Shown: positions 8,351-58,517 of the stretch, in pieces | Numbering within the stretch: the first letter of the stretch is position 1 | Layout: each line of letters starts with the position of its first letter | Origin: Gammaproteobacteria bacterium | GTDB taxonomy: Bacteria > Pseudomonadota > Gammaproteobacteria > Steroidobacterales > Rariloculaceae | Assembly: GCA_035644475.1 (NCBI GenBank) | Contig: DASQOL010000004.1 | Coordinates: 1,288-65,287, forward strand | DNA length: 64,000 bases | Direction: 5' to 3' | Notes under the pieces: generated by a model | Database searches by the model: none | Seen by the model: only the letters and a program-made list of their open reading frames with translations | What the model was told of the DNA's origin: nothing | Translations under genes and position numbers: made by a program

Positions 8351-9406
8351 ATGACGGACGGAACCGACCGGGCCGAGGCCAAGGCCAAACAGGCCGCGAT
8401 TCACGAGAAGTACGCGTTCTGGATGGACGTGAGCGGCAAGCTCGCGCTGCCGCTCGTCACGGCCATCGTCGCGCTGGCGGGCACGTACCTCACCACCAAG
8501 ATCAACGAGCAGAACAACGTCCGCGAGACCATCAACCAGCGCGAGCAGGCGGAGTCCGCGCTGCGCACGCAGATGTTCCGCGAGCTGGTGAGCCCGGTGG
8601 TCGGCGACTTGGGCGCGAGCGCGACGGCCGACGACAATCGTCCGGAGCGGCTCGCGCTGCTCGCCGAGATGCTCGCGCTCAACTTCCACGAGCACTTCGA
8701 GCTCGGGCCGCTGATGCTCTACGTGGACGAGCTGCCCGGTCAGACGACGCTCAACCGCAACCGCATGCGCTCGGTCGCACGGCGGGTGATCTCGCGGCAG
8801 CTCGCGGTGCTCGGCCCGGCCGCGGCCACGGCCGCGACCGCAACGTGCGGCAAGGAGTCGAGCGACGTCGACATCTGGCTCACGTCCGACGCGTCGGAGC
8901 CGGCCGACAAGCCGCAGGCGTGCCAGATCGCGGGCGAGCCCGACGGCAAGAGCGCGTACTTCGAGTGCAGCAGCGTCGACCGCGCGTCCGAGGTGCTGGC
9001 GCCGTTCACCGTGTCTTCGAAGGACTGCAGGGACCGGCTCACGATTCTGCTCGCCGATCTCGACTGGGCGAACAACAGCGTGCGCGTGGTCGCGACCAGC
9101 ACGCCGCCGTCGGCGCAGAGCACGGCGGGAGCGCAAGCCGACGCGAACACGATCCCCGAGTTCGTCGAGTTCACGCTGTCGCCGTACGCAATGCCGTTCT
9201 CCGACAACACGCTGCTGCGCAGCGGCAACCGGTTCGGGCTCTACGTGCGGCAGATCGAGCCGAGCCGCGAGCCGTGCACGCCGCCCGCCTGCGATCCGAC
9301 GACGCGCCTGATGCGGCTGTCGCTGATCTGGTTCCCGCGCGACTTCATTCCGCCGCGCGAGCGCCCCACCGACTTCGAAGAGATCCGCAAGTCCCTCAAG
9401 CTCTGA
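8351..9406 (+). CDS. Membrane-anchored Cys-rich protein, unknown function (351 aa)
   Basis: One N-terminal TM (LALPLVTAIVALAGTYLTT), then a large domain with 7 Cys by my reading. GC3-rich coding signal. I recognise no family. Confidence 0.6.
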   Translation: MTDGTDRAEAKAKQAAIHEKYAFWMDVSGKLALPLVTAIVALAGTYLTTKINEQNNVRETINQREQAESALRTQMFRELVSPVVGDLGASATADDNRPERLALLAEMLALNFHEHFELGPLMLYVDELPGQTTLNRNRMRSVARRVISRQLAVLGPAAATAATATCGKESSDVDIWLTSDASEPADKPQACQIAGEPDGKSAYFECSSVDRASEVLAPFTVSSKDCRDRLTILLADLDWANNSVRVVATSTPPSAQSTAGAQADANTIPEFVEFTLSPYAMPFSDNTLLRSGNRFGLYVRQIEPSREPCTPPACDPTTRLMRLSLIWFPRDFIPPRERPTDFEEIRKSLKL

Positions 9407-9434
9407 AAATAGGGACAGGTTACTTTTTCGCGCG
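9405..9434. repeat. Half copy (single arm) of the AT-armed hairpin repeat family
   Basis: GAAAATAGGGACAGGTTACTTTTTCGCGCG matches the family arm GAAAATAGGGACATGTTGCATTTTCG. It is wedged between the TGA of the + gene (9404-9406) and the stop of the - gene (9435-9437). Confidence 0.55.
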
Positions 9435-10256
9435 TTAGCGGCAGAAGGTCTGGTTCAGCGTCGCCGCGAGACGCTCGCCGGCGCGCGCGAGACGCTCCGC
9501 GGTGACGCGCTGCGCCGCGGCGACGTACTCGGCATCGAGCACGATCGGCGGCGGCGACTCGCGCAACGCGTACACGGCTCCGCGCAACGCGAGGCTCTCG
9601 GCGGCCCACGCGGCGGGGTCGACATCGCGCGCCGCCTCGTCCACGGACCGCAGGCTCGGCGCGAGCCGTCGCGCGTAACGTTGCGCCGAGAGGCCCGCGA
9701 GATCGATGACGTCCGTATCCCAGAAGCGATGCAGGTTGACGACCGTGTCGCCGTAGCGGACGTCGATCGTGTTGCCGCCCCGGTCCTCCGCTCGGCCCAC
9801 ATGCAGCGGCTGATGCACGTCCACGACAAAGTGCACGAGGAAACGCAGCGCGTCGAGCCGCCGGGCCGCGGGCAGGTCCCGGTTCGCGAGATCGCGCCGG
9901 AAGCGCTCGATCGCTTCGAGCACGTCGCCCTCGGGCGGGTGACGAAATGCCGCGATGCTCGCCCGCGCGGCCGCGAGATCGCCCGCACGCGCGGCGTCGG
10001 CCACGTTCATGAAATGCCACGGCGCGGACTGCCGCCATTCGGGCATGCTCCGCACCGCGTCGGCCCAAACACCGAGCTCCGCGAGCGATTCGCCGCCGCC
10101 GAGCGCCGCCACCTCGGCGCTCGCGCCGGCGCAGAGCCGCGGCCCGGCAAGCAGCCCGGCGATCCGGTGGCCGTCGGGCCCGAATGCACCCGCCCGCGGC
10201 GCCGCAACGACGGCGGCCACGGCGAAGAACCAGAGAAGAAACCCTCGCTTGCTCAC
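9435..10256 (-). CDS. S1/P1-type nuclease (exported)
   Basis: Signal peptide, then FGPDGHRIAG, WHF.N, HFVVDVHQPLH, GGN and NLHRFWD. These are the zinc-ligand motifs of the S1/P1 nuclease family. Confidence 0.85.
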   Translation of the reverse strand: MSKRGFLLWFFAVAAVVAAPRAGAFGPDGHRIAGLLAGPRLCAGASAEVAALGGGESLAELGVWADAVRSMPEWRQSAPWHFMNVADAARAGDLAAARASIAAFRHPPEGDVLEAIERFRRDLANRDLPAARRLDALRFLVHFVVDVHQPLHVGRAEDRGGNTIDVRYGDTVVNLHRFWDTDVIDLAGLSAQRYARRLAPSLRSVDEAARDVDPAAWAAESLALRGAVYALRESPPPIVLDAEYVAAAQRVTAERLARAGERLAATLNQTFCR

Positions 10257-10364: not shown

Positions 10365-11396
10365 ATGCTCGCGCACCGACACTCGCTCGCACTGCTCGCT
10401 CTGCTGCTCGCGCCGCTCACCGCACAGCTCGCACCGCTCACGCTCAAGGAGCAAGGCAGCTTCTTCGTCGGCGGCGAGAAGAAGACCGTGTCCACGCCGG
10501 CCAACAATTTGGTCCCGGCCCAGACGGGCGAGATCACGGTCAACCAGATGTACGTGCAGTACCAGATCCCGATGAACGGCGACCGGCACCTGCCCATCGT
10601 GATGGTTCACGGCTGCTGCCTGAGCAGCAAGACCTGGGAGACGACGCCCGACGGCCGCATGGGCTGGAGCGAGTACTTCGTGCGCAAGGACCGCTCGGTG
10701 TATCTCGCCGACCAGGTGTCGCGCGCGCGCTCGGGCTTCGACCCGACGGCGTTCACCGACGTGCGCACAGGCAAGACTCCGCCCGCGCAGATGCCGGGAA
10801 TCCTATCGGCGTCGCACGAGATCGGCTGGACCGTATTCCGCTTCGGCCCGAAGTACGGCGAGGTGTTCCCCGACGAGCAGTTCCCGATGCAAGCGATCGA
10901 CGAGTTCTACAAGCAGATGATCCCGGACCTGAACTCGACGCTGCCGCAGAACCCGAATCCCACCTGGACGCAGATGGCCGCGCTCGGCGTGAAACTCCGC
11001 GGCGCCGTGCTCATGGGCCACTCGGAGTCCGGCTTCTTTCCGGAGCAGGCCGCCCTCATCAATCCGAAAGGCATCAAGGGCGTCATCTCGATCGAGATGG
11101 GATGCGTCACGGATTTCGGCGCGCAGCAGCTCGCAACGCTCGCCAAGATCCCCACGCTCATCATGTTCGGCGACCACTTGGGCGACGTGAGCGGCGGCCC
11201 CGCGAACTGGGCGCAGTCGTTCGACACCTGCAAGACGTTCGTCGATCAGCTCAACAAGGCCGGCGGCAACGCCACGATGATGCATTTGCCCGCGCTCGGC
11301 ATCAAAGGCAACAGCCACATGCTGATGCAGGACAAGAACAGCGATAGGCTCGCCGACCTCGTCATCGACTGGATCGACAAGCACGTCGAAAAATAG
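10365..11396 (+). CDS. Exported alpha/beta-hydrolase (esterase-like)
   Basis: Signal peptide, a VMVHG oxyanion-type block, and a nucleophile elbow GHSESG. The stop TAG lies inside the downstream repeat arm. Confidence 0.8.
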   Translation: MLAHRHSLALLALLLAPLTAQLAPLTLKEQGSFFVGGEKKTVSTPANNLVPAQTGEITVNQMYVQYQIPMNGDRHLPIVMVHGCCLSSKTWETTPDGRMGWSEYFVRKDRSVYLADQVSRARSGFDPTAFTDVRTGKTPPAQMPGILSASHEIGWTVFRFGPKYGEVFPDEQFPMQAIDEFYKQMIPDLNSTLPQNPNPTWTQMAALGVKLRGAVLMGHSESGFFPEQAALINPKGIKGVISIEMGCVTDFGAQQLATLAKIPTLIMFGDHLGDVSGGPANWAQSFDTCKTFVDQLNKAGGNATMMHLPALGIKGNSHMLMQDKNSDRLADLVIDWIDKHVEK

Positions 11397-11493
11397 GGAC
11401 ATGTTGCATTTTTCGACGCCGCAGGCTCGGGGCCGGTGGCGCCTCATCGAAAATGCAACATGTCCCCATTTTTCGCTGTCCCCATTTTTCGCG
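11388..11493. repeat. AT-armed hairpin repeat, full copy plus 18-nt arm-end duplication
   Basis: Left arm CGAAAAATAGGGACATGTTGCATTTTTCG (11388-11415), GC-rich core, and right arm CGAAAATGCAACATGTCCCCATTTTTCG (11448-11475). This is followed by a duplicated CTGTCCCCATTTTTCGCG (11476-11493). Confidence 0.8.
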
Positions 11494-11508: not shown

Positions 11509-12063
11509 TTGGTAGCGACCTCTTCCACGCACCGCGAGCTCGGCATCTCCGCGCCGAATTTCGCGCTGCCGGACTACGCCGGCCGCATCGTCGCGCTCGG
11601 CGACTTCCCCGGCGCGCGCGGGCTGCTCGTGGTGTTCTGGAGCAACCACTGCCCGTACGTGAAGTACATCAAGCGCGCGTTCGCCGAGTTCGCGCGCGAG
11701 TACCAGGAGAAAGGCCTCGCGATCGTCGCGATCAACGCCAACGACGCCGACGCCTATCCCGACGACAGCCCCGCGCAGATGCAGGCCGACGCCGAGGAGT
11801 TCGGCTTCACGTTCGACTATTTGATCGACGAGACGCAGAACGTGGCGCGCGCATTCGACGCCGTCTGCACGCCCGACTTCTTCCTGTTCGACCGCGGCCG
11901 CCGACTCGCCTATCACGGCCAGTTCGACGCGAGCCGCCCGCGCAACAGCGAGCCGATCACCGGCGCCGACCTGCGCGCGGCGGCCGACGCGGTGCTCGCG
12001 GGCAAGCCCCCGCCGCCGCAGCAGACGCCGAGCATCGGCTGCAACATCAAGTGGCGTAGCTGA
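11509..12063 (+). CDS. Thioredoxin-fold protein (redoxin/TlpA-AhpC-like)
   Basis: Sequence LLVVFWSNHCPYVKY...AIVAINAND...PDFFLFD is a typical redoxin-family layout. I chose the TTG start at 11509, preceded by GGAGGG at a 6-nt spacing. The track start at 11401 lies inside the repeat. Confidence 0.75.
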   Translation: MVATSSTHRELGISAPNFALPDYAGRIVALGDFPGARGLLVVFWSNHCPYVKYIKRAFAEFAREYQEKGLAIVAINANDADAYPDDSPAQMQADAEEFGFTFDYLIDETQNVARAFDAVCTPDFFLFDRGRRLAYHGQFDASRPRNSEPITGADLRAAADAVLAGKPPPPQQTPSIGCNIKWRS

Positions 12064-12943: not shown

Positions 12944-13783
12944 TCAGCGCGCGTCCGCCACGGAGTTACTCACCGGATGCGTCGGCGCCTTGTTCCGCGC
13001 CTGCTCGTAGAACGGCATCATCTTCGGCGCCAGCGCGGCGAGCGTCTGCTGGCGGTTGCCGGGGGCCGGGTGCGTGCTCAGGAACTGCGGCGGCCCGCCG
13101 CCCCCGACTTTCTCCATCTTCTGCCATAGCGAGATTGCGGCGTTCGGGTTGTAGCCGGCTTTCGCCGCGAGCTCGATGCCGATGCGATCGGCCTCCGACT
13201 CCGCGGCGCGGCTGTTCGGCAGCTGGATGGCGACCTGCGCCGCGAGCGCCACGGCGCCGAGGGCCGCGCCGTCGTTGTCCTTCGACAAGGCGCCGACCAC
13301 CGCGAGGCCCGCGCTGGTGGCGAGCGCCACCGACATGCGCTCGGCCGTGTGGTTCGCGAGCGCGTGGCTGATCTCGTGGCCGAGCACCTGCGCGAGCTCG
13401 TCGTCGCTGGGGTCGATCTTCTGCAGCAGGCCCGTGTAGACGGCCATGCGTCCGCCGGCCATGCACCACGCGTTCACGGTCTCGGGGTCGTCGATGACCT
13501 GCACGCTCCATTCCCAATTGGCCGTGTCGGGCCGGAACGCGATCGCCTGCGCGACCAGGCGCTCGGTGATCGCGTCGACGCGGCGCGTGACGCGCGCATC
13601 GGTCACGAGCTTCCCTTCCTTGCGCAGATCGCCCATCTGCGTCGCGTACGCCTCCTTGGACGCGGCGATCGCGTCGTTCTCGGAGACCAACGCGAGCGTG
13701 TGCCGCCCGGTGGGGCTCGTGGCGCAGGCGCCGAGCGCGACGAGGATCAACGCCGTCGCGCCGAATCGGGTCTTCGATCTCAT
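12944..13783 (-). CDS. M48-family zinc metallopeptidase lipoprotein
   Basis: Lipoprotein signal LILVALGAC, HEISHALANH (HExxH), and a downstream ESEAD glutamate motif. The ATG at 13783 follows GAGGTGAGG. The track ORF (to 14242) over-extends. Confidence 0.85.
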   Translation of the reverse strand: MRSKTRFGATALILVALGACATSPTGRHTLALVSENDAIAASKEAYATQMGDLRKEGKLVTDARVTRRVDAITERLVAQAIAFRPDTANWEWSVQVIDDPETVNAWCMAGGRMAVYTGLLQKIDPSDDELAQVLGHEISHALANHTAERMSVALATSAGLAVVGALSKDNDGAALGAVALAAQVAIQLPNSRAAESEADRIGIELAAKAGYNPNAAISLWQKMEKVGGGGPPQFLSTHPAPGNRQQTLAALAPKMMPFYEQARNKAPTHPVSNSVADAR

Positions 13784-14379: not shown

Positions 14380-15210
14380 TCAGCGCGGGATGTCGACGGC
14401 TTGGATCGGGAACGTCGGCGGGGTGCCGGCCTTGGCCTGCTCGTAGAACGGCCGCATCTTCGGCCCGAGCTCGGCGAGCTTCTGCTGGCGGTTCGCTGGG
14501 CTAGGGTGGGTGCTCAGGAACTGCGGCGGACCCGCGCCCGAAACTTGCTCCATCTTTTGCCAAAGGCTGATCGCCGCGGCCGGATCGTAGCCCGCCTTCG
14601 CGGCGAGCTCGATGCCGATCTGATCCGCCTCCGATTCCGACGTGCGGCTGTTCGGCAGCTGAACGGCGTATTGTGCCGCGAGCGCCGTGGCGCTCATCGT
14701 CGCCACCGAGTTCTTCGAGAATAGCCCAGCCGCGGCGACGCCCAAGTTGGTCGCCATCGCGACCGACATGCGCTCGGCCGTGTGATTGGCCAGCGCGTGG
14801 CCGATCTCATGGCCCATGACCTGCGCGAGCTCGTCGTCGCTGGGCATGATCTTCTCGAGCAGGCCCGTGTACACGGCCATGCGGCCGCCGGCCATGCACC
14901 ACGCGTTCACGGTCTCGGGATCGTCGATGACCTCGACGCTCCATTCCCACATCTGCGTCTCGGGCCGGACCGTGATCGCCTGCGCGACGAGCCGGCTCGT
15001 GATCCGGTCGACACGGCCCGTGATCGCGGCGTTCGACACGAGCTTGCCGGACTTGCCGAGATCGTTCATCTGGGTGAGATACGCCTCTTTCGACGCGGAG
15101 ATCGCGCTCTCCTCCGAGACGAGTGACAGCTGCCGCCGGCCGGTCGGGCTCGTGGCGCACGCCGCCAGCGCCGCAGCGAGCACCAGCAACCCGATCGTTC
15201 GGGTGTTCAT
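14380..15210 (-). CDS. M48-family zinc metallopeptidase lipoprotein (paralog)
   Basis: Lipobox LAAALAAC, HEIGHALANH, ESEAD. It is collinear with, and highly similar to, 12944-13783 at both protein and DNA level. Confidence 0.85.
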   Translation of the reverse strand: MNTRTIGLLVLAAALAACATSPTGRRQLSLVSEESAISASKEAYLTQMNDLGKSGKLVSNAAITGRVDRITSRLVAQAITVRPETQMWEWSVEVIDDPETVNAWCMAGGRMAVYTGLLEKIMPSDDELAQVMGHEIGHALANHTAERMSVAMATNLGVAAAGLFSKNSVATMSATALAAQYAVQLPNSRTSESEADQIGIELAAKAGYDPAAAISLWQKMEQVSGAGPPQFLSTHPSPANRQQKLAELGPKMRPFYEQAKAGTPPTFPIQAVDIPR

Positions 15211-22277: not shown

Positions 22278-22628
22278 ATGCCGCTTGCACCTTTCGAGCG
22301 CGCGAGGCCCACGCACGGGCGCCTTTACACGACCGAAACCTCGAGCGGCACGTCGATGGTAAAAGTCAAACCGAGCATCCGGCCCACCGAGACGTACACC
22401 GAGCCGAACTTCATCCGCGTCTACACGGCGTCAGCGCCGGACGGCCAGCGGCTCGCCACGATCGAGCATCTCTCGTACGACGCGGAGAAGGGCCGCGGCC
22501 GGGCGGGCTGGAGCTGCCAGACGATCGTCGACGGCGAGGTGATGACGAAAGAGGACGCGCTCTTCATCGCCCGCAACTACGCCATCGCGAACAGCATCCC
22601 CGTCATCTACGAGTGCCACGGCGACTAA
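22278..22628 (+). CDS. Small hypothetical protein
   Basis: ORF with a GC3-rich codon pattern; I recognise no family. An alternative start is the ATG at 22356 (MVKVKPS...). The stop TAA abuts the hairpin repeat. Confidence 0.45.
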   Translation: MPLAPFERARPTHGRLYTTETSSGTSMVKVKPSIRPTETYTEPNFIRVYTASAPDGQRLATIEHLSYDAEKGRGRAGWSCQTIVDGEVMTKEDALFIARNYAIANSIPVIYECHGD

Positions 22629-22712
22629 GAAAATAGGGACATGTTGGATTTTTCGGCGGCCCGCCCGGGCGGGGCGGCGCGGTCGAAAGAAATGCAACAT
22701 GTCCCTATTTTC
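22629..22712. repeat. AT-armed hairpin repeat, full copy
   Basis: Sequence is GAAAATAGGGACATGTTGGATTTTTCG, a GC-rich self-complementary core (CCCGCCCGGGCGGGG), then CGAAAGAAATGCAACATGTCCCTATTTTC. It fills the whole gap between two convergent stop codons. Confidence 0.8.
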
Positions 22713-23506
22713 TAGAGGTGGACGGAGGACGGGAGGGACGTCCTGGTCTTCTTGTGGATGATGACGAGCGAATCCTTGAAGCGAATCTCGTCGATCTCGG
22801 CGCAGATGCGGGGCACCGACAACGAAGACAAAGCGTCCTTGTGGCCCCTTCTGAAGAAGGGCTCGCCCGGATGATCGACGTAGTGGCAATGCATGAAGTC
22901 GACCAAGTCCTTGCACAGATCGACGAACGAATACTTCTGATCGCGGAAGCCTTTCCAAAAGTTCGAATGGGTGTCTTCCACGACGTACACGCCGGGATTC
23001 TTGAGGCCCTCCAAGAACAAATGGTTGAAGCTCGCGACCATGTGCGAGCACATGTGACTGCCGTCGTCTAGGATCAGATCGAAAGGACCGAATTCGTCGA
23101 CTAGCCGGCGTACACCCGGGGTGGACTGATCGCCGATCCTGATGTGCACGTTCTCGTCAGGCCGGTCGTATTGCTTGCACGCTTCGTCGATGTCCAGTCC
23201 GACGATCACGGAGTCGGGGTGCAGGTACTCCCGCCACATTCGAACGGAAGAGCCGTTGTAAACGCCGATCTCGAGCAGGCGAATCGGGCGCTTCGCGAAC
23301 GGCGCCAGGACGGACGCATAAGTCTCGAAATAATGCAGCCACTTGTGACCGTTCGGAATTCCCTTCCAGACGCCATAGAGGTCCCGTGGCAAATCGTCGG
23401 GCAACTGCTCGCCGGCAGCCAGGATCCGTGGCGAGAAGAACTCGGCACTCAGGTGCTTACCCGGCCCCCGAGGCGGCCGGTAGCGATATCTCCTCTTGCC
23501 GGCCAC
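22712..23506 (-). CDS. Class I SAM-dependent methyltransferase (HKWxHYF / sugar-or-macrolide O-methyltransferase-like)
   Basis: Sequence GHKWLHYFETY...LLEIGVYNGSSVRMWREYL...GLDID...DLILDDGSH. G+C is visibly lower than in the neighbours. The start is uncertain: there is no in-frame ATG upstream of the domain, so I chose the GTG at 23506. Confidence 0.7.
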   Translation of the reverse strand: MAGKRRYRYRPPRGPGKHLSAEFFSPRILAAGEQLPDDLPRDLYGVWKGIPNGHKWLHYFETYASVLAPFAKRPIRLLEIGVYNGSSVRMWREYLHPDSVIVGLDIDEACKQYDRPDENVHIRIGDQSTPGVRRLVDEFGPFDLILDDGSHMCSHMVASFNHLFLEGLKNPGVYVVEDTHSNFWKGFRDQKYSFVDLCKDLVDFMHCHYVDHPGEPFFRRGHKDALSSLSVPRICAEIDEIRFKDSLVIIHKKTRTSLPSSVHL

Positions 23507-23517
23507 GAGCTTCGACG

Positions 23518-24264
23518 CTACTGGCCGGCGAGCTTGCGGAGGTCCGCGGCGGTGAGGTTGCCCTTGGCGAGCGGTTGGCCCAGATCGAACTCGCGGGTTT
23601 TGGCGAGCGAGCCGATCATGACCGAGTCGAAGCCCGCGTCGCGCACGAGCCGCTGCGCGACCGCGATGGCCTGCGCGTCGTCGCCGCCGATCGGGATCGC
23701 GAGCCGCTCGGGCGTGCGGTTGCCGTCGTTCGCCAGCGACATGAAACCGATGCAGTTGAACGCGCGCACCACGCGGTTGTTGTGCAACAGCTCGGCCGTG
23801 GCGACGCCCGCGCCCTTCTTCTGCCACTCGGCGGCCTCAGCGCCGTCGCGCCCCGGGTTCGGGTTGCTCGTGTCGAGGATCACCTTGCCCGCGAGCTCCG
23901 CGCGCAGGTCGGTGCCGATCTGCGGCATCGCGCCGTACGGGATCGATACGAGGATCACCTCGCCGAACGCCGCGGCCTCCTTCGGCGTGCCCGCGTGCGC
24001 GCGCGGCCCGAGCTCCTTCACGAGATCCTGGAGCTCCTCCGGATGCCGCGACGAGACGAACACCTCGTGCCCGGCCTTCACCCAGTGCCGCGCGAGCGCG
24101 CTGCCGATTCGGCCGGTGCCGATGATGCCGATCTTGAGCGGCGGGCCGGCTGCTTGCGCGTGCGCGGGCGCCGAAGCGCCGAGACCGGCGAGCAGGCCGA
24201 TGGCCGCGCTCGCGGCGAGCGCGACGATCGAACGGCGGGTGATGACGGCAGTTTTCGTTGGCAT
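23518..24264 (-). CDS. Rossmann-fold NAD(P)-binding oxidoreductase (F420-dependent NADP reductase-like family) with predicted Tat/Sec signal
   Basis: Signal-like N-terminus MPTKTAVITRRSIVALAASAAIGLLAGLGASAPAHAQA, then KIGIIGTGRIGSALARHWVKAGHEV. The ATG at 24264 follows GAGGA. Confidence 0.7.
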   Translation of the reverse strand: MPTKTAVITRRSIVALAASAAIGLLAGLGASAPAHAQAAGPPLKIGIIGTGRIGSALARHWVKAGHEVFVSSRHPEELQDLVKELGPRAHAGTPKEAAAFGEVILVSIPYGAMPQIGTDLRAELAGKVILDTSNPNPGRDGAEAAEWQKKGAGVATAELLHNNRVVRAFNCIGFMSLANDGNRTPERLAIPIGGDDAQAIAVAQRLVRDAGFDSVMIGSLAKTREFDLGQPLAKGNLTAADLRKLAGQ

Positions 24265-26439: not shown

Positions 26440-26454
26440 CAGCCCCCCGTGCAC

Positions 26455-26607
26455 GACCGCCATGGATGGCGGGAGTGCCGCAAATGCAGGACGCCATTTG
26501 CGGCCGACCGCCATGGATGGCGGGAGTGCCGCGAACGCAGGAGCAGCTTCGCGGCCGACCGCCATGGATGGCGGGAGTGCCGCGAACGCAGGAGCAGCTT
26601 CGCGGCC
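26455..26607. repeat. Tandem repeat, 3 x 51 bp, each unit containing a hairpin
   Basis: Units start at 26455, 26506 and 26557 (GACCGCCATGGATGGCGGGAGTGCCGC...). Units 2 and 3 are identical. Unit 1 differs in the hairpin, with a paired compensatory change. Confidence 0.85.
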
Positions 26608-34520: not shown

Positions 34521-35240
34521 TTAAGGTCCCGCGACCCCGGTCGTCACGAGTCGATACCCCGCGCCGCGCACGGTGATCAGGTTGCGCGGCTCTTTCACGT
34601 CGGCCTCTATCTTGCGCCTGAGCTTGGCGATGTGAATGTCGACGGTGCGCGTCTCGATGTCGGCCGTGCGGTCGTAGCCCCACACGCGCGTGAGCAGCTC
34701 GGCGCGCGAGACGGGCCGCTCCGTGTTCGACTGCAAGTATTGGAGAATCTCGATCTCGCGGCGCGTGAACGCGAGCTCCGTCGCGCCGCGGCGCCCGGAG
34801 AGATTGCGCGTGTCGATCTCCACGTCGCCGTCGAGCCGGATCTGCGCCGCGAGCTCCGCGCCCACGCGCGAGCGGCGCAGCACGGCCTTCACGCGCAGCA
34901 CCAGCTGCGCGATCGCAAAGGGTTTGGCGACGTAGTCGTCCGCGCCGAGCGTGAGGCCGTTGACGATGTCCTCGTCGCTCGTCTTCGCGGTGAGCATGAT
35001 GATCGGCTGATCGCGGTCGACCTTGCGAATCTCGTCGCAGATCGAGAAGCCGTCGCGGCCGGGGAGCATCACGTCGAGGAGCACGAGGTCGTAGTGCCCC
35101 GTGAGTGCTTTCGCGAGGCCTTCCTTACCGTCGCCGACGGCGTCGACGCGATAGCCGTGATAGACGAGCACGTCCGCGAGACCGTCGCGAATCGCGGCCT
35201 CGTCCTCCACGACCAGGATGCGGGGCTTCGTGGGCTCCAT
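34521..35240 (-). CDS. OmpR/PhoB-family response regulator
   Basis: Receiver domain (ILVVEDE...DLVLLDVMLPG.DG...LTA) plus a winged-helix output (LT.RE.E.L.YL......V.SR..L....WG). An alternative GTG start is at 35246. Confidence 0.9.
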   Translation of the reverse strand: MEPTKPRILVVEDEAAIRDGLADVLVYHGYRVDAVGDGKEGLAKALTGHYDLVLLDVMLPGRDGFSICDEIRKVDRDQPIIMLTAKTSDEDIVNGLTLGADDYVAKPFAIAQLVLRVKAVLRRSRVGAELAAQIRLDGDVEIDTRNLSGRRGATELAFTRREIEILQYLQSNTERPVSRAELLTRVWGYDRTADIETRTVDIHIAKLRRKIEADVKEPRNLITVRGAGYRLVTTGVAGP

Positions 35241-35276
35241 GCGCACCTAGGCTAGCAGCTAAGGCGCGCGCGCCGT

Positions 35277-35295: not shown

Positions 35296-35310
35296 GCGAC
35301 GTGGATCGCC

Positions 35311-35380
35311 GGAAAATGGGGACATGTTGCATTTTCCGCGGCGGCGCCGCGCGGAAAAGGCAACATGTCCCTGTTTTTCG
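35311..35380. repeat. AT-armed hairpin repeat, short-core copy
   Basis: Sequence is GGAAAATGGGGACATGTTGCATTTTCCG, core CGGCGGCGCCGCG, then CGGAAAAGGCAACATGTCCCTGTTTTTCG. It abuts the stop (35381-35383) of the upstream small ORF. Confidence 0.8.
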
Positions 35381-35647
35381 CTAGCCGCGCGGACGCGCGG
35401 GGGAGCTCGCGACGCGGCTCGCGTGAGCGTTCCGGCCGGCGGCGCGCTCCAGGCTCGCACTAACCGCGTCGAGGTGGCGCGCGACGTCGACGCGCATCGC
35501 CGCACGGTCGATCTCCACGGTCACGACCGGACGCTTGCCGTAGACGACGATCTCGTCCACCGCCTCGTCCGCCCCCGCGTGTCTCGCGCTCAGCAACGCG
35601 CCGGCGGCGAGCAATGCCGCCGGAATATTCCGCCTGTGGGTAATCAA
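35381..35647 (-). CDS. Small exported protein, unknown function
   Basis: TTG start at 35647, preceded by GGAG at a 7-nt spacing. Signal-like (M)ITHRRNIPAALLAAGALLSARHAGA. 88 aa. Confidence 0.45.
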   Translation of the reverse strand: MITHRRNIPAALLAAGALLSARHAGADEAVDEIVVYGKRPVVTVEIDRAAMRVDVARHLDAVSASLERAAGRNAHASRVASSPARPRG

Positions 35648-35784
35648 GGTTGTCTCCTTCCGTTGGAACAATTCGAAGACGGCCCGGTCGTCCCTGACCA
35701 AGCCGGCTGCCGGTGCAATTGCACGTGGCGTGCCACTGTCGGCGGCGAGCATTTAAGCCGAGTTTGATGACAGTTCAACGACTG

Positions 35785-41224: not shown

Positions 41225-41248
41225 TCGCCGAGAGTCTGTCCCCTCGGG

Positions 41249-44041
41249 CTATTCGTAGCGCAACACGGTCATCGGATCGACGCGCGACGCGCGCCGGGCC
41301 GGAATGTAGGCCGCGCTGAGCGTGACAGCCGCGAGCACCGCGGCGGCCGCCGCCAGTGCGAACGGGCTCCCGGCTTCGACGCCGAACAGGAGGCTTTGCG
41401 CCGCATGGCCGAGGAGCCACGCCGCGCTCGCGCCGAGCACGATGCCCATCACCGCCATCCCCGCCACCTGCCGCAGCACCATCTGGCCGATGCGGCCCGC
41501 CGGCGCGCCGAGCGCAATGCGCAAACCGATCTCCCGCGAGCGCTGCGCGACGGAGTACGCGAGCACGCCGTAGAGACCGAGCGCGGCCAACGCGGTCGCG
41601 AGCACGGCGAACACGACCGAGGTTCCGGCGAAGAAGCGCTCCACTGCGATAATCTCGCGGAATTGCTGCTCCATCGGCTGAAGATTCGCGATCGGAATGG
41701 TCGGATCGACGCGAGTGACGGTATCGCGAATGGCGCTCATGACGTCATCGGACGGCAGCTCACTGCGAACATAGAAGGTCGCTGAGCCGGTGAATACCAT
41801 CCCGCTGGACGCCAGCACGAACATGTGCGGCTCGATCGCGTCGGTGATCTTTCCGATCCTCACGTCTTCGATGACGCCGACGATCTCGAACCGATAGACG
41901 GCCCTGACGGCTCGCCCGATGATGGCGTCGGGGACGAGACCGAGGCGGTCGGCGAATCGCCGATTGACGATCGCCGCCAGCCCGGAGCTGGAGCTCTTCC
42001 TGCCGTTGTCCGTGTCGCTGAGCTCACGGCCCGCGAGCAACTCGATGCCGAACACCTCGACGAAATCGCCGCTGACGAAGTCTAGGGACACCGGAAACTT
42101 TTCGCTCTCCATGTCCTCGACGGCCGCGTCGTAGATCGCCGCCCCCTGGAGCGAGAGCAGAGGACGCGCATTCGACCAAGCCACGGAAGACACGCCCGGG
42201 ATCGCCTCGAGCGCCTCTGCGAGGCGAGGTAGGGAGCTCACGTTCGTGGCTATCCCACCCCGGGGCGGCACGGAGAACATGACGACCGGATCGATATCGA
42301 AGCCGAGATCGAGGCGCGCAACGTTCGCGAGGCTTTGCGCGAAGCCACTCATCGTCGCGAGCAGCGCCATCGCCAGCGCGACTTGCGCCGTCGCGAGCGT
42401 GGCACGGAAGCGCGCGACGCCTTTGACTGTGGTCTGCCTCCCGCCATAGGCCTGCAACGCCTTCCCGGGCTCGGCCCGGATCAGTCCGCGGAAGGGAAGG
42501 AGCCCGACGGCCAGCGCCGACGCCACCGCGACGCCTACGCCCAAGAGCGCCGCTGTTGCGCTCACGCGGAGGTCGGGTGCCGCCGTGGAGATTCCGGGCA
42601 CCCAGCTCGCGCCGCGCAGGATCAACCACGCGACCGGGAGGCTCGTGAGCGCCGCCGGCAGCGCAAGCACGAGCGACTCGGCGAGCAGCAGCGCAGCGAG
42701 GCGCCCGCGCGTCGCCCCGATCGACGAGCGCAGCGCCATCTCGCCGCTTCGTGTGGTCGCGCGGACCAACATGAGCCCCGCGACGTTGGCGCAGCACAAG
42801 AGCAGCACCAAGCCGCTCGCCGCCCACAGCAGCCTAACGCCGTTGCGTGCGGGAGAGAGGATCCGGCTGCTCGTTTGCCCTCGCGCCCCGGGCTCGAGCA
42901 CGAGCGGCCTTAAGCGAAACGCCTCGCGCTCAAGTTCGTCGGCGTCGAGCAGAAGAGGCGCTTCGACGTCGCTTAGGGTAGCGCGATACAACGGATTGAT
43001 CGCGGCCTCGGCCCCTTCGCGAGTGACGCCCGGCTTGAGGCGCGCGAAGAGATGGACCCAGTGCAAGTTGCGACGGTCGTGATTCGGGATGGCCGTCGTC
43101 GCAGCGAAGCCATCGAGGCCACCGGAGAACGAGATCGTGATGGGTACGAACACGCTCGCGCGGGCGCCCACCGCCGTGCCGTGGAACCCGGGTGGCGCCA
43201 CTCCAACGATGGTCAGCGGCACATCGGCGACGAGGAGCGTGCGCCCGAGGACACCCGGATCACCGCCGAATTCGCTCTGCCAGTACGCGTGGCTCAATAC
43301 CACCGAAGTGGCCTGTCCGTCGACGCGATCGTCCTCGGGGCCGAGCAGCCGACCGAGCGCGGGCGGAAGCCCTAGCACCGAGAAGTAGCTTCCTGAAACG
43401 ATAGCCAGGGTCGCAAGCCGCGGACGCTCGCCGGTCGAAAGCGTTGCATCGAAGAAGGTGTGTGCGGCAAGCCCGACGAACGGCTCCTGCCCGCGCTCGA
43501 GATCGCGGAACATCGGGTAGCTGAAGAGGGTTTCGTATTCGCCGCTGGCGGACTCTCGCACCACCATAGACGTCAACGTCACCGGATCCGTTTGGGCACC
43601 CATCTGGACGAACATCTTGTTGGGATCGGTCAAGTTCACGAGGCGGTCCGGCTCCGGTGCGGACAGCGGGCGTAGCAGTGTTTGATCAGTCAGCGAGAAA
43701 ATTGCGACGTTGACGCCGATGCCGAGCGCGAGCGTCAACACGGCGACCGCCGTGAACGTCGGCTGCCGGCGCAGCGTTCTGAACGCATAGCCCGCATCTG
43801 CGATAAACGTTTCGACCGAGCCGAGCGCGAGCCTTTCACGCACGCGGTCTTTCGTTTGCTCCACGCCGCCGAGCTCGATGCGCGCGGCACGCCGTGCTTG
43901 CGCCTCGGTCACGCCGGCGCGCATCTTCTCAGCGGCGGAGCGCTCGATGTAGTCCGCGAGGTCGCTATCGAGCGCTCGCTCGATCTCGCCGCGCCGGAAC
44001 AACCAACGCGCGAGCGCGCGAATGCGGTACAGGATCGTCAT
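41249..44041 (-). CDS. ADOP-family duplicated orphan permease (MacB/FtsX superfamily, 930 aa)
   Basis: The N-terminus MTILYRIRALARWLFRRGEIERALDSDLADYIERSAAEKMRAGVTEAQARRAARIELGG is the hallmark ADOP leader. There are two FtsX modules (GEMALRSSIGATRGRL..., REIGLRIALGAPAGRI...). Confidence 0.9.
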   Translation of the reverse strand: MTILYRIRALARWLFRRGEIERALDSDLADYIERSAAEKMRAGVTEAQARRAARIELGGVEQTKDRVRERLALGSVETFIADAGYAFRTLRRQPTFTAVAVLTLALGIGVNVAIFSLTDQTLLRPLSAPEPDRLVNLTDPNKMFVQMGAQTDPVTLTSMVVRESASGEYETLFSYPMFRDLERGQEPFVGLAAHTFFDATLSTGERPRLATLAIVSGSYFSVLGLPPALGRLLGPEDDRVDGQATSVVLSHAYWQSEFGGDPGVLGRTLLVADVPLTIVGVAPPGFHGTAVGARASVFVPITISFSGGLDGFAATTAIPNHDRRNLHWVHLFARLKPGVTREGAEAAINPLYRATLSDVEAPLLLDADELEREAFRLRPLVLEPGARGQTSSRILSPARNGVRLLWAASGLVLLLCCANVAGLMLVRATTRSGEMALRSSIGATRGRLAALLLAESLVLALPAALTSLPVAWLILRGASWVPGISTAAPDLRVSATAALLGVGVAVASALAVGLLPFRGLIRAEPGKALQAYGGRQTTVKGVARFRATLATAQVALAMALLATMSGFAQSLANVARLDLGFDIDPVVMFSVPPRGGIATNVSSLPRLAEALEAIPGVSSVAWSNARPLLSLQGAAIYDAAVEDMESEKFPVSLDFVSGDFVEVFGIELLAGRELSDTDNGRKSSSSGLAAIVNRRFADRLGLVPDAIIGRAVRAVYRFEIVGVIEDVRIGKITDAIEPHMFVLASSGMVFTGSATFYVRSELPSDDVMSAIRDTVTRVDPTIPIANLQPMEQQFREIIAVERFFAGTSVVFAVLATALAALGLYGVLAYSVAQRSREIGLRIALGAPAGRIGQMVLRQVAGMAVMGIVLGASAAWLLGHAAQSLLFGVEAGSPFALAAAAAVLAAVTLSAAYIPARRASRVDPMTVLRYE

Positions 44042-44067
44042 GCGTCCTCCGGGGAAAACGCTTCGAG

Positions 44068-56716: not shown

Positions 56717-56748
56717 CGGGGCGCTTCGTGCCACGATCGCGGGTTGGA

Positions 56749-56941
56749 GTCGTGTCTCACTTTGGCCTTTGGCACCGAGATCGCGGCGGCCGCACCTCGA
56801 AGGGGTCTTCCCGAGACACGCCGGAAGATCGTCCCTGAGGCTCCGCGCGGCACATCCCTGTGCCGCGAGGGTCTCGGGAAGACCCCTTCGAGGTACGACC
56901 GCCGCGGTCACGCGCATCGTGGGGCCAAAGTGAGACACGAC
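56749..56941. repeat. MITE-like 193-bp element with 19-bp perfect terminal inverted repeats
   Basis: The terminal inverted repeats are GTCGTGTCTCACTTTGGCC (56749-56767) and GGCCAAAGTGAGACACGAC (56923-56941). There are further internal inverted blocks (ACCTCGAAGGGGTCTTCCCGAGAC / GTCTCGGGAAGACCCCTTCGAGGT). It has no convincing ORF and is intergenic. Confidence 0.6.
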
Positions 56942-56967
56942 GCCTTTTTTAATTGGGGGGGACTCGC

Positions 56968-58440
56968 ATGCGACTACCGGCACGGCTCCTGTTCTGCGCG
57001 TTTGGCATCGCGGTCGCGAATGGTTGCGGGGCGCAGGCGGCGCGTGGGCTGCTCGAGCAGGCGGCCGAGGCGATGGGCGGGCTCGAACGGCTGCGGGGCC
57101 TCGACAACGTCGTGCTGACGGGCTTCGGCGTGTACCTGAGCCAGCAAGGCGGGGGCAATTTGTCGCCCGACGCGCATGCCCCTTCGAAGTGGCAGGAAGG
57201 GAACGCGGCGCGACGCGTCTTCGATCTCAAGGGCAAGCGGGCGCTCTATCAGGATCGGCGCATCTCGATGTTTCCGTTCGCTGCCGCCTCCGGCAACCGC
57301 TGGAGCGAGACGCTGCAAGTGCAAACCGGCGTCCAGGCGCTCGACCATCCGCTCACGGCGCTGCTCGCGGCGCTCGAACCGGGCGCGCGGCTCGGGCCCG
57401 TGCGCACCGAGAACGACCTCGCCGTCGTCGAGCTCACCGTAGCCGACGGCGCGATGCTCTGGATCGCGCTCGACGCGCGCGCCCACCTGCCCGCGTGGGT
57501 CCGCTGGGTCAACGGCAGCGCGACACTAGGCGACGTCACGAGCACGGCGTACTTCACGGGTTACCTGCCGTTCGACGGCGTCGAGCTGCCGACCGGCTTC
57601 AAGACCATGATCGATTGGCGCGATACGACCACGTCGGAGTTCCAGGTCGACTCGTATCGATTGAATGTGCGCGACCTCGAGCCGTTCCCCGCCACGATCA
57701 CCAACTCGCCGCCCGGCGCGACGGCCCTCGCGGTGAAACCGGTGGCGAAGGGCGTGTGGGACGTACGTTATGGCGGCAACGCCGGCGCCGTCGTCGAGTT
57801 CGCCGATCACCTCACGATGTTCGAAGCGTACGGCAGCGAGCTCGCAACGTTCGCGCGGCTCGACGCCGCCAACAAGCTCGTCAAGGGCAAACAGGTGACC
57901 GAGGTCATCGTCTCGCACCATCACTTCGACCACAGCGGCGGCCTGCGCGCCGCGGTGTCGCGCGGCCTCACGATCATCTCGCGGCGCGCGAACGAGGGGA
58001 TCTTCCGCGAGATGGTCGCGCGGCCCGCGCCGAACTTCCCCGACGCGCTCGCGCGCAATCCGCAGCCGATGAAGTTCGTGCCCGTCGACGAGCATCTCGT
58101 GCTCGAGGATAAGACGATGCGCGTCGACGTCTATCACGCGGTGGGCCACCTGCACATGGCCGACGCGGTGTTCGCCTACGTGCCGTCGGTGCGCGTGCTC
58201 ATGGAGGGCGACTTCACGACGTTCGACTGGGATTACAACTGGTGGGGCGGCGCCTACCTCGACAACGTGGCGCGCTACAAGCTCGACCCGGCGATCAACG
58301 TGCCGGTGCACGGCAAGGTCACGACCTTCGCGGAGACGACGGCGGACATCGAGCGGCAAGTCGCGAACGCGCGCAAGTTCTGCACCGACAACGCGGCGGC
58401 CGCCATCTTCACCGCCGGCTGCCCCGTCCCCGGAAAATAG
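56968..58440 (+). CDS. MBL-fold metallo-hydrolase lipoprotein
   Basis: Signal/lipobox FGIAVANGC. HxHxDH motif VIVSHHHFDHSGG. ATG at 56968 after a G-rich RBS. The stop TAG lies inside the downstream repeat arm. Confidence 0.8.
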   Translation: MRLPARLLFCAFGIAVANGCGAQAARGLLEQAAEAMGGLERLRGLDNVVLTGFGVYLSQQGGGNLSPDAHAPSKWQEGNAARRVFDLKGKRALYQDRRISMFPFAAASGNRWSETLQVQTGVQALDHPLTALLAALEPGARLGPVRTENDLAVVELTVADGAMLWIALDARAHLPAWVRWVNGSATLGDVTSTAYFTGYLPFDGVELPTGFKTMIDWRDTTTSEFQVDSYRLNVRDLEPFPATITNSPPGATALAVKPVAKGVWDVRYGGNAGAVVEFADHLTMFEAYGSELATFARLDAANKLVKGKQVTEVIVSHHHFDHSGGLRAAVSRGLTIISRRANEGIFREMVARPAPNFPDALARNPQPMKFVPVDEHLVLEDKTMRVDVYHAVGHLHMADAVFAYVPSVRVLMEGDFTTFDWDYNWWGGAYLDNVARYKLDPAINVPVHGKVTTFAETTADIERQVANARKFCTDNAAAAIFTAGCPVPGK

Positions 58441-58517
58441 GGACATGTTGGATTTTCGACGGCGCGCCCGACGACCCTACGCCGGGTCGCCGAAAATCCA
58501 ACATGTCCCTATTTTCC
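58432..58517. repeat. AT-armed hairpin repeat, full copy
   Basis: Sequence is GGAAAATAGGGACATGTTGGATTTTCG, a GC-rich core, then CGAAAATCCAACATGTCCCTATTTTCC. The arms contain the TAG of the + gene (58438-58440) and the stop of the - gene (58509-58511). Confidence 0.85.

What the first reader, a model, noticed from the sequence alone, without database searches (positions are those of the whole stretch)
11388..11493. The hairpin repeats sit exactly on gene ends and in several cases contain the stop codon
The TAG inside the arm motif AAATAGGGAC is the stop codon of the alpha/beta-hydrolase (11394-11396) and of the MBL-fold hydrolase (58438-58440). The mirrored CCCTAT in the right arm gives the stop of the M28 peptidase (58509-58511). 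The other flanking stops abut the element within 0-3 nt: 9404-9406, 9435-9437, 22626-22628, 22712-22714 and 35381-35383. So either the element targets stop-codon-like TA(G/A) sites, or insertion has replaced native C-termini and stops. The 11388 copy also carries an 18-nt duplication of its arm end (11476-11493), suggesting slippage or an abortive second insertion. The 35311 copy lies between two co-directional genes (a small ORF and the response regulator), where it would act as an attenuator rather than an operon-end terminator.
Basis: seen in the sequence. Interest (0 to 1): 0.7.

Follow-up and report, generated by a model that had tools for sequence, protein, structure and literature searches.

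The report
Palindromic repeats supplying gene stop codons
A family of ~85-base hairpin repeats in an uncultured soil gammaproteobacterium sits on the ends of genes and carries a built-in TAG that serves as the stop codon for about four in ten of the genes it touches; this behaviour is already documented for related bacterial repeats, so it is a clean new example and not a new phenomenon.

Summary
Each element is an inverted doublet of a 29-nt unit, CGAAAAATAGGGACATGTTGCATTTTTCG, with a spacer of about 35 nt. It folds at -46 to -72 kcal/mol.

I collected 246 non-redundant unit ends from the window, 63 metagenome loci and an independent MAG. Of these, 157 face a gene 3' end:
- 65 (41%) use the unit's own TAG as the stop.
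- 26 (17%) have a stop overlapping the unit edge.
- 2 read through.

- TAG-in-unit genes (hydrolase, M28 peptidase) end 2-20 residues short of most orthologs, with element-encoded E/G-K.
- Genes whose stop abuts the edge keep the native stop exactly.

The unit resembles the inverted repeats (GGGGWSAS motif) that flank TIRYT/RAYT-type Y1 transposase genes. No such gene was found in the ~1 Mb of sequence held.

Di Nocera et al. 2013 already reported that REP termini often donate TAG stops. My verdict is a new member of a known kind, of moderate-low interest. Whether stops are actively targeted or simply what selection retains is unresolved.

The parts
11387..11415 (+). Left 29-nt unit of the focal doublet (cgaaaaatagggacatgttgcatttttcg). 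Its TAG at 11394-11396 is the stop codon of the hydrolase ORF 10365-11396.
11416..11447 (.). GC-rich spacer between the two units. It forms the tip of the long hairpin.
11448..11475 (-). Right unit of the focal doublet, inverted. It is a TGG variant (AAAATGGGGAC) with no stop, and it faces the start side of the peroxiredoxin gene.
11477..11492 (-). Perfect 16-nt tandem duplicate of the outer end of the right unit (a copy of 11461-11476). The same partial duplication recurs at L005, L086 and L113.
10365..11396 (+). Alpha/beta-hydrolase-like gene; homologs are named pimeloyl-ACP methyl ester carboxylesterase. Its last codons GAA AAA TAG (E K stop) lie in the unit.
11510..12063 (+). AhpC/TSA peroxiredoxin gene, co-directional with the hydrolase. 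Probable TTG start 17 nt after the duplicated arm end, preceded by GGAGGG.
   Evidence: L064 gene call 1743-2297
9405..9430 (+). Singlet unit of the older AGGTTAC subtype. It fills most of the 28-nt gap (9407-9434) between two convergent genes. The native TGA 9404-9406 overlaps its edge, and the unit TAG 9410-9412 follows in frame.
22629..22712 (.). Doublet between convergent ORFs. TAA 22626-22628 lies immediately before the left unit's first base, the G at 22629 (offset -4 from the AAAAT run). TAG on the minus strand (CTA 22712-22714) overlaps the right unit's edge.
35310..35380 (.). Doublet between the small ORF 35381-35752 (-) and the response regulator 34521-35246 (-). The small ORF's stop (CTA 35381-35383) directly abuts the unit's CGA edge.
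58431..58517 (.). Doublet that contains the whole gap between the convergent MBL-fold gene (stop TAG 58438-58440) and M28 peptidase gene (stop CTA 58509-58511). Each arm's TAG is one gene's stop.
   Evidence: (I1)

Best explanation
These are non-autonomous palindromic repeats of the REPIN/MITE kind. Two inverted copies of a 29-nt terminal unit flank a spacer of about 35 nt (a minority have about 42 nt).

Inferred origin: they derive from the inverted repeats that flank a TIRYT/RAYT-type Y1 (HUH) transposase gene and are copied in trans by that enzyme.

Shown: they accumulate almost only at gene 3' ends. The genome is compact and 68% G+C, and gaps between convergent stops are often 0-35 nt, so a copy lands on or within a few codons of the stop.

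Inferred filter: the unit has one stop codon, TAG, 7 nt in from its outer edge, in one frame only. Its edge (C-G-A/G) becomes TGA or TAG when the preceding base is T, or TA. Insertions survive only in three cases:
(a) they break into a dispensable C-terminal tail in the TAG frame;
(b) they lie flush on the native stop;
(c) they lie just downstream of it.

Result (shown): the element supplies or overlaps the stop at about 58% of the gene ends it faces, and almost never causes read-through.

Inferred function: once in place the doublet forms a 30-40-bp hairpin bracketed by A5 and T5 runs on both strands. It probably acts as a 3'-end hairpin (bidirectional terminator or mRNA stabiliser). Because the stop codon sits in the 5' arm, a terminating ribosome must melt the stem.
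For: Anatomy and stability: (hairpins of -46 to -72 kcal/mol, z-scores -5 to -10).

Copy-and-paste origin:
- Spacer length is sharply peaked: 49 of 121 doublets have 35-36 nt and 16 have 42 nt.
- 29 non-orthologous doublet pairs share spacer similarity (score 16 or more), against 0 in shuffled controls.

Location: of 108 doublets, 36 are convergent, 29 tandem and 1 divergent.

Stop statistics:
- 42 of 103 gene-facing units use the unit TAG in the window organism, and 32 of 70 in the independent MAG DASUFK01.
- After merging duplicate and orthologous sites: 65 unit TAG, 26 edge overlap, 32 at 1-17 nt upstream, 32 further away and 2 read-through, out of 157.
- TAG makes up 60-79% of stops next to units and 32% elsewhere. 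Unit-free convergent gaps have a median of about 33-50 nt, and many are 0-12 nt.

C-termini:
- Tails are truncated in TAG-class genes.
- The native stop is kept in edge-class genes.

No target motif: information content falls to background upstream of position -3.

Link to Y1 transposases:
- The unit core [A/G]GGGACA[T/G] is a 6-7 of 8 match to the GGGGWSAS motif of TIRYT inverted repeats (PMC3733652; PMC6006769).
- TIRYT genes on plasmids are flanked by AAAAAAGGGGACAGATTTATTTTCC (P. aeruginosa) and CAAAGGGTCAGAGTTGTTGATTTTCGG (Pseudoalteromonas). Both have the same A-run, GGGWCA core and T-run layout.

Against: - No RAYT or TIRYT gene was found by tblastn in the window or in about 1 Mb of related loci, so the mobilising enzyme is inferred from motif resemblance only.
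- The spike of stops exactly at offset -3 (23 ends, against 1-7 at any neighbouring offset) is roughly 8-fold more than uniform insertion plus selection would give.
- Units at orthologous sites in two species carry genome-specific inner sequences. That needs gene conversion or repeated re-insertion on top of the simple model.
- Terminator or stabiliser function is untested. The simple terminator scan does not call these hairpins, because the T-run is part of the stem.
Confidence: 0.55

Rival explanations
1. Active targeting. The enzyme that copies the element chooses stop codons, or the A/T-rich and easily melted DNA at gene ends, as its insertion site. Microhomology between the unit's GA/AG-AAAA end and TGA/TAG/TAA may be involved. 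On this view the overlap with stops is a property of the insertion reaction, not of later selection.
For: - There is a sharp peak at offset -3 (18 in the window organism, 5 in the MAG) and 4 ends at -2, against 1-7 at other nearby offsets.
- In five ortholog comparisons the unit lies exactly flush on an unchanged native stop.
- New doublets often lie directly beside an older unit. The same 16-nt partial end duplication occurs at four loci, which suggests a fixed break point after GGGACA(S).
- Orthologous sites are occupied by different, genome-specific subfamilies, as expected if the same sites are hit repeatedly.
- From established knowledge: Y1 transposases of IS200/IS605 insert next to short specific sequences in single-stranded DNA.
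Against: - The largest class (unit TAG used) cuts into coding tails at varied positions, not at the native stop.
- No conserved sequence lies upstream of -3.
- Unit ends that face gene starts or non-coding DNA have the same CGA/CGG edge without any stop.
- Only one clean empty site for a doublet was recovered (L074), and the intergenic DNA there differs wholesale, so no junction could be reconstructed.
Confidence: 0.25
2. Host-retained module plus genome compaction. The doublets are kept by selection as 3'-end hairpins. Deletion bias then removes all dispensable DNA between the gene and the hairpin until the stop codon and the unit edge overlap, in the same way that adjacent genes come to share ATGA.
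For: - Units are occupied at orthologous sites in two species whose flanks are 85-92% identical (38 of 40 flank comparisons had a unit at the matching site, though these include same-lineage pairs and the sample is ascertainment-biased). The outer 16 nt are invariant while the spacers have diverged almost beyond recognition.
- Unit-free convergent gaps are often 0-12 nt, which shows strong compaction.
- The singlet at 9405-9430 and the doublet at 58431-58517 fill their intergenic gaps almost completely.
- A CGA-to-TGA change at the edge still allows a G-U pair in the RNA stem (inference).
Against: - There are no expression or 3'-end data.
- The genome-specific subfamily switch at orthologous sites is not explained by simple conservation.
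- A selfish element restricted to tolerated sites gives the same distribution.
- The unit alone does not fold (-5 kcal/mol, z-score +1.1).
Confidence: 0.3
3. Uptake-signal-like motif. The unit is a DNA uptake or other protein-recognition sequence that spreads by biased uptake and recombination, as with Neisseria DUS inverted pairs in terminators. Genome-specific 'dialects' would then be expected.
For: - Inverted pairs lie at gene 3' ends and there are no target-site duplications.
- Variants are genome-specific even at orthologous sites.
- Most spacers are unrelated to one another.
Against: - The unit has 27-29 conserved positions and is A/T-rich in a 68% G+C genome. That is too long to arise in place by point mutation at hundreds of sites.
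- Spacer length is fixed at 35-36 or 42 nt, and some non-orthologous copies share spacer sequence, so whole doublets are copied.
- The same unit occurs as doublets in MAGs from other phyla.
- It resembles transposase-flanking repeats.
Confidence: 0.05
4. Chance or ORF-calling artefact. The stops coincide with the repeats only because open frames in G+C-rich DNA end at the first A/T-rich stretch.
For: In 68% G+C DNA spurious ORFs are long and do tend to end in A/T-rich islands. Two of the flanking ORFs (35381-35752 and 22712-23827) have weak coding scores.
Against: - Frames were chosen by codon-usage score upstream of the unit, independently of the unit.
- The key genes have Pfam domains or hundreds of homologs whose C-termini align.
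- The result replicates in an independent genome.
Confidence: 0.01

Closest known systems
TIR repeat families of 'TIRtrons': inverted repeats flanking TIRYT Y1 transposase genes, TnpA_REP-like subclass 2.1 (Di Nocera et al. 2013, PMC3733652; Quentin et al. 2018, PMC6006769)
   Same: - The units occur as inverted dimers and clusters in intergenic DNA.
- The core [A/G]GGGACA[T/G] is close to the GGGGWSAS motif.
- The A-run, core and T-run layout matches the repeats flanking TIRYT genes on P. aeruginosa and Pseudoalteromonas plasmids.
- The motif is shared across phyla.
   Different: - No TIRYT gene was found next to a unit here.
- The commonest unit matches GGGGWSAS at only 6 of 8 positions.
- The T before AGGG, which creates the TAG, is absent from the five plasmid TIRs whose flanking repeats aligned with the unit.
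- The systematic use of the repeat as a stop codon has not been described for this class in the papers read.
GTAG-tagged REP sequences and REPINs mobilised by RAYTs (E. coli, Pseudomonas, Stenotrophomonas SMAG)
   Same: - They are inverted doublets that form long hairpins.
- They lie between convergent and tandem genes and rarely between divergent ones.
- They persist vertically, with lineage-specific sequence populations.
[quoted passage not shown]
   Different: - The tag here is ATAG in most copies, and GTAG in only a few.
- It lies between an A-run and the core, not at the foot of a G+C-rich stem-loop.
- A single unit has no stable hairpin of its own.
- The unit is A/T-rich.
E. coli REPs within 15 nt of a stop codon, which stall ribosomes and lower translation (Liang, Rudd and Deutscher 2015, as summarised in PMC12306157)
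   Same: A stable hairpin begins at or within a few nt of the stop codon, so a terminating ribosome must collide with it.
   Different: - In E. coli about 11% of RepRanger-predicted REPs are that close. Here about 78% of gene-facing units are within 20 nt, and 58% contain or overlap the stop.
- The effect on translation has not been tested here.
MITEs that alter gene ends (Neisseria Correia elements, enterobacterial ERIC, mycobacterial MIRU, Coxiella MITEs); listed from my own knowledge and from the title of PMC5896051 only
   Same: They are short non-autonomous palindromic repeats that can donate stop or start codons and change C-termini.
   Different: Those elements derive from DDE transposons and have target-site duplications (TA for Correia elements). 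Here the flanking triplets are inverted-symmetric, not direct, so no duplication is seen.

Membership tests
TIR repeats of TIRtrons (TIRYT-associated) | Inverted repeat carrying the GGGG[AT][CG]A[CG] motif near its outer end | tested here: inconclusive
   TGGGGACAT and TAGGGACAG variants match 7 of 8 positions; the commonest, TAGGGACAT, matches 6 of 8. The overall layout aligns with TIRs flanking TIRYT genes on plasmids: 19-20 of 32 positions match the P. aeruginosa TIR, and GGG-W-CA is invariant.
TIR repeats of TIRtrons (TIRYT-associated) | The same repeats flank a TIRYT (Y1/HUH) transposase gene in the genome | not testable with these tools
   tblastn with E. coli RayT and eight RAYT/TIRYT sequences from PMC3733652 found nothing in the window or the held loci.
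TIR repeats of TIRtrons (TIRYT-associated) | Moderately abundant copies organised as dimers or clusters | tested here: met
   121 doublets plus singlets and triplets were found in about 1 Mb.
GTAG REP / REPIN-RAYT system | Unpaired GTAG tetranucleotide at one end of the unit | tested here: not met
   The tetranucleotide is ATAG in the great majority. GTAG occurs in only a few copies, such as L011 1430, L031 1231 and L036 4446.
GTAG REP / REPIN-RAYT system | Each unit is itself a short stable stem-loop | tested here: not met
   Only an A5/T5 self-complementarity is present. The singlet at 9398-9440 folds at -5 kcal/mol, z-score +1.1.
GTAG REP / REPIN-RAYT system | Two inverted units form a long hairpin (REPIN) of conserved length | tested here: met
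   Hairpins fold at -46 to -72 kcal/mol. Spacer length peaks at 35-36 nt.
GTAG REP / REPIN-RAYT system | Extragenic, downstream of genes, between convergent or tandem genes | tested here: met
   36 doublets are convergent, 29 tandem and 1 divergent, out of 108.
DDE-transposon-derived MITE | Direct target-site duplication flanking the terminal inverted repeats | tested here: not met
   The flanking triplets on the two sides are mirror images (cga/tcg, cgg/ccg, tga/tca), not direct repeats, and there is no information upstream of -3. TA could be a duplication only in the few tag/cta cases.
Intrinsic (bidirectional) transcription terminator | G+C-rich hairpin followed by a U-tract, with an A-tract upstream for the opposite strand | tested here: inconclusive
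   The A5-hairpin-T5 layout is present on both strands. However, the runs pair with each other in the predicted fold and the pattern scan does not call these sites. There are no RNA data.
Rfam RNA families | Match to a curated covariance model | tested here: not met
   No match at gathering threshold anywhere in the window.

The most novel reading that the evidence does not exclude
The element is a portable 'stop codon plus bidirectional terminator' cassette with three properties. It homes to the stop codons of genes through its Y1 transposase's recognition of single-stranded T-R-R sites. It is renewed in place, so that orthologous gene ends in different species carry each genome's own current subfamily. 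And it is retained by the host because it closes reading frames and transcripts in a genome with almost no intergenic space.
Probability: 0.15. Interest if true: 0.65.

Novelty: new member of a known kind. Interest (0 to 1): 0.35.

Why it matters
It is a well-quantified case of a mobile repeat rewriting the last codons of many genes.
- In two related soil gammaproteobacterial genomes, about 41% of the gene ends next to a unit stop on element-encoded TAG.
- TAG use roughly doubles near units.
- For genome annotation, C-terminal E/G-K-stop endings in this lineage are repeat-derived.
- For repeat biology, the result extends the known 'REP donates TAG' behaviour to an A/T-rich, TIRYT-like repeat class.
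- It also gives two testable clues: the offset -3 spike and the genome-specific subfamilies at orthologous sites. These bear on the open question of how RAYT/TIRYT-associated repeats choose and keep their sites.

It does not reveal a new kind of system.

Tried and rejected
- Rfam at gathering threshold on the whole window gave no hit.
- The first genome-contig scan, with a strict 23-mer, found nothing. A looser pattern found the DASUFK01 MAG.
- The viral-contig scan found nothing.
- Searches for the mobilising enzyme failed. tblastn with E. coli RayT and with eight RAYT/TIRYT sequences rebuilt from the supplement of PMC3733652 found nothing in the window or held loci. A weak RayT hit in L024 turned out to be a glucose/sorbosone dehydrogenase on a contig with an inverted duplication.
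- A search for empty sites, by mapping both flanks of every site onto all other loci, gave 40 collinear matches. Only one was truly empty (L074). A second candidate (L045) held a decayed unit.
- I expected covariation between the outer A-run edge (GA versus GG) and the inner T-run edge, as a sign of a unit-level hairpin. It was weak and I dropped it.
- The simple terminator scan does not recognise the doublets.
- I considered a target-site duplication of CG or TA and rejected it, because the flanks are mirror-symmetric, not direct.
- I considered an attC-like or IHF-site reading of the unit core and dropped it after inspecting the sequence.
Full report
**What is there**

The window is about 68% G+C. 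It holds four inverted doublets and one singlet of an A/T-rich 29-nt unit with consensus CGAAAAATAGGGACATGTTGCATTTTTCG.

Most of these ORFs have a Pfam domain or many homologs.
- The focal copy spans 11387-11475. Its left unit contains TAG 11394-11396, the hydrolase stop.
- Its right unit is a TGG variant.
- It is followed by a perfect 16-nt tandem duplicate of its outer end (11461-11476, repeated at 11477-11492).
- The next gene, an AhpC/TSA peroxiredoxin, probably starts at TTG 11510. This rests on comparison with the gene call in L064. The focal copy therefore lies between co-directional genes.
- As RNA the doublets fold into hairpins of -46 to -72 kcal/mol, with z-scores of -5 to -10. The singlet does not fold.
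- Rfam has nothing for the window.

**More copies**

- A strict pattern found no match in one-genome-per-species contigs but found 63 metagenome loci, mostly on Ga0137409/Ga0137410 contigs.
- A looser pattern found many copies in the MAG 'Gammaproteobacteria bacterium SMAG_U1377' (DASUFK01). It also found isolated doublets in an Omnitrophica MAG and a Planctomycetia MAG.
- Homologs of the window's proteins are likewise named Gammaproteobacteria, and one Steroidobacteraceae.

**Stop-codon statistics**

I trained a codon-usage score on long ORFs with high third-position G+C. It separates real from shadow frames in the window. For every unit I then asked which coding frame runs into its outer end and where that frame stops.

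In the window organism, 103 of 155 unit ends face a gene 3' end:

| Position of the stop | Unit ends |
|---|---|
| The unit's own TAG | 42 |
| Overlapping the unit edge (TGA/TAG at -3: 18; TGA at -2: 4; TAA at 0: 2) | 24 |
| 1-17 nt upstream of the edge | 22 |
| Further upstream (often because another unit intervenes) | 14 |
| Read-through | 1 |

- In the independent MAG, 32 of 70 gene-facing units use the unit TAG.
- After merging duplicate and orthologous sites the totals are 65, 26, 32, 32 and 2, out of 157.
- The unit has a stop in one frame only. Random entry would therefore give about two read-throughs for every TAG use; the observed ratio is 2 to 65.
- TAG accounts for 60-79% of stops next to units and 32% elsewhere.
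- Doublets lie between convergent (36) or tandem (29) genes and almost never between divergent ones (1).

**Were C-termini replaced, or are native stops hit?**

Both happen, in different classes.

TAG-in-unit class:
- The hydrolase ends ...WIDKHVEK*, as do its closest relatives. More distant orthologs continue with 2-10 or more mostly basic residues.
- An element-free ortholog reads cacgtcgagacgaaaaagccccagcgcTGA (L066).
- An 87%-identical ortholog has the element and ends HVEKRK* on the unit TAG. An 85%-identical one keeps a degenerate singlet with the TAG even though its downstream neighbour differs.
- The M28 peptidase ends ...AALGK* in the window, in a close relative, and in the MAG ortholog. 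Most orthologs end ...AALEAAGAR* or run longer.
- So the unit encodes the last two residues (E/G-K) and the stop, and a variable tail has been lost.

Edge class:
- For gene 8351-9406 (TGA overlapping the singlet), every ortholog down to 57% identity ends ...SLKL*. Three element-free loci read AAGCTCTGA followed by unrelated sequence.
- For gene 22712-23827 (TAG at -3), the best homologs end within 0-3 residues of the same position.
- In L020 against its empty ortholog L074, both convergent proteins keep their length.
- In L010 against L075, the same TGA is flush with a unit in one and 28 nt from it in the other.
- In this class the element lies exactly on an unchanged native stop.

**Is it mobile, and by what?**

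- Spacer length is sharply peaked (35-36 nt in 49 of 121 doublets; 42 nt in 16). Twenty-nine non-orthologous pairs share spacer similarity, against none in shuffles. Most spacers are otherwise unrelated. So whole doublets have been copied, but the family is old.
- Conservation begins at -3 and ends about 24 nt in. Upstream there is only background signal and coding periodicity, so there is no extended target motif.
- The triplets flanking the two arms are mirror images, not direct repeats, so there is no target-site duplication.
- Di Nocera et al. (PMC3733652) described inverted repeats with a GGGGWSAS motif flanking TIRYT Y1 transposase genes, which form repeat families organised as dimers. 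Quentin et al. (PMC6006769) equate TIRYT with TnpA_REP-like subclass 2.1.
- The unit core matches that motif at 6-7 of 8 positions.
- I located TIRYT homologs on plasmids. Their flanking repeats have the same A-run, GGGWCA core and T-run layout: AAAAAAGGGGACAGATTTATTTTCC in a P. aeruginosa plasmid and CAAAGGGTCAGAGTTGTTGATTTTCGG in Pseudoalteromonas.
- This is a resemblance, not proof. No RAYT or TIRYT gene occurs in the window or in the roughly 1 Mb of loci held.

**Further observations that bear on mechanism**

- The window organism's units are mostly ...ATGTTGGA/ATGTTGCA... and the MAG's are ...A[T/G]GTTACT.... This holds even at orthologous gene ends whose flanks are 85-92% identical, while the outer AAAATAGGGACA is invariant.
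- The window organism also carries degenerate AGGTTACT singlets, often immediately beside a newer doublet.
- This points either to gene conversion among copies or to repeated re-insertion at the same sites.
- The partial duplication seen at 11477-11492 recurs at three other independent loci in both genomes, always as GAAAAATRGGGACA plus two or three bases and then a full unit. That suggests a preferred break point after GGGACA.

**Interpretation**

My preferred reading is insertion by a Y1-type enzyme, followed by a strong selective filter in a compact genome. Unit-free convergent gaps have a median of about 33-50 nt and are often 0-12 nt.

That reading explains the location, the near-absence of read-through and the truncated tails. 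It does not fully explain the spike at -3 or the flush junctions. Those leave room for real stop-proximal targeting or microhomology (rival 1), or for deletional compaction around a selected hairpin (rival 2).

An uptake-signal-like origin is unlikely, given the unit's length, the fixed spacer and the shared spacers. A role as a terminator or stabiliser, and a translational cost of stopping inside the stem as shown for E. coli REPs within 15 nt of a stop (summarised in PMC12306157), are inferences without data here.

**Novelty**

[quoted passage not shown] REPs close to stops, REPINs persisting at conserved sites, and TIRYT-type repeat families are all described.

What is new is this particular A/T-rich family in an uncultured lineage, the high fraction of stops it supplies, and the clean split between tail-replacing and stop-flush copies.

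Noticed in passing
window 26454-26607: Three tandem copies of a 51-nt unit (85-100% identical). Each contains two short palindromes, CGCCATGGATGGCG and GCCGCAAATGC...GCATTTGCGGC-like. It is a different repeat from the one studied (family D10).
   Followed up: no
window 56776-56912: A second long palindrome: 42-nt arms, 90% complementary, 53 nt apart (GCACCTCGAAGGGGTCTTCCCGAGAC...). It lies just upstream of the MBL-fold ORF, which opens at 56953, and inside the 3' part of the minus-strand ORF 55586-56983. Weak relatives of one arm occur in L029 and L054.
   Followed up: partly
window 41244-44041 and 44063-46773; also 12999-13576 and 14435-15009: Adjacent paralogous duplications. Two minus-strand ORFs of about 900 aa are 76-85% identical over long stretches, and a second duplicated pair lies at about 13-15 kb (families D1-D8).
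   Followed up: no
L074 2426-2454, L138 1680-1727, L040, L084 and 16 other loci: A second intergenic palindromic repeat family, GGTGTCTGACACC, often in pairs. It occupies gene 3' ends in the same genomes, including sites that hold the studied element in the sister genome. It is absent from the window.
   Followed up: partly
L070 2379-2444 (Omnitrophica MAG MNVP01000078) and L088 1530-1605 (Planctomycetia MAG CAYOMG010000147): Doublets of AAAATAGGGACAGGTTCATTTTT, nearly the same unit, in A/T-rich contexts in MAGs of other phyla. No RAYT/TIRYT gene was found within the stretches held. This could be horizontal spread of the repeat class or bin contamination.
   Followed up: partly
L024 1342-5103 (Ga0137411_1286534): This contig carries a long inverted duplication. 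The same glucose/sorbosone dehydrogenase 3' end plus unit appears at both ends in opposite orientation. It is possibly an assembly fold-back at the palindromic repeat.
   Followed up: partly
L041 1012 and L078 7008: An orthologous singlet, AAAAGAGGGACATGTTAC(G/T)TTTT, lies just upstream of a gene start. It has the same subtype in both genomes, unlike the doublets. It has no TAG and escaped the genome-specific homogenisation.
   Followed up: no
L127 1284-1321 (P. aeruginosa plasmid NZ_CP116719.1): The annotated TIRYT-like transposase CDS (601-1293) ends on a TAG that lies inside its own right-hand inverted repeat (ATTAGAGTAGGGAAAAT...). So a repeat-embedded stop also occurs in an autonomous relative.
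   Followed up: no
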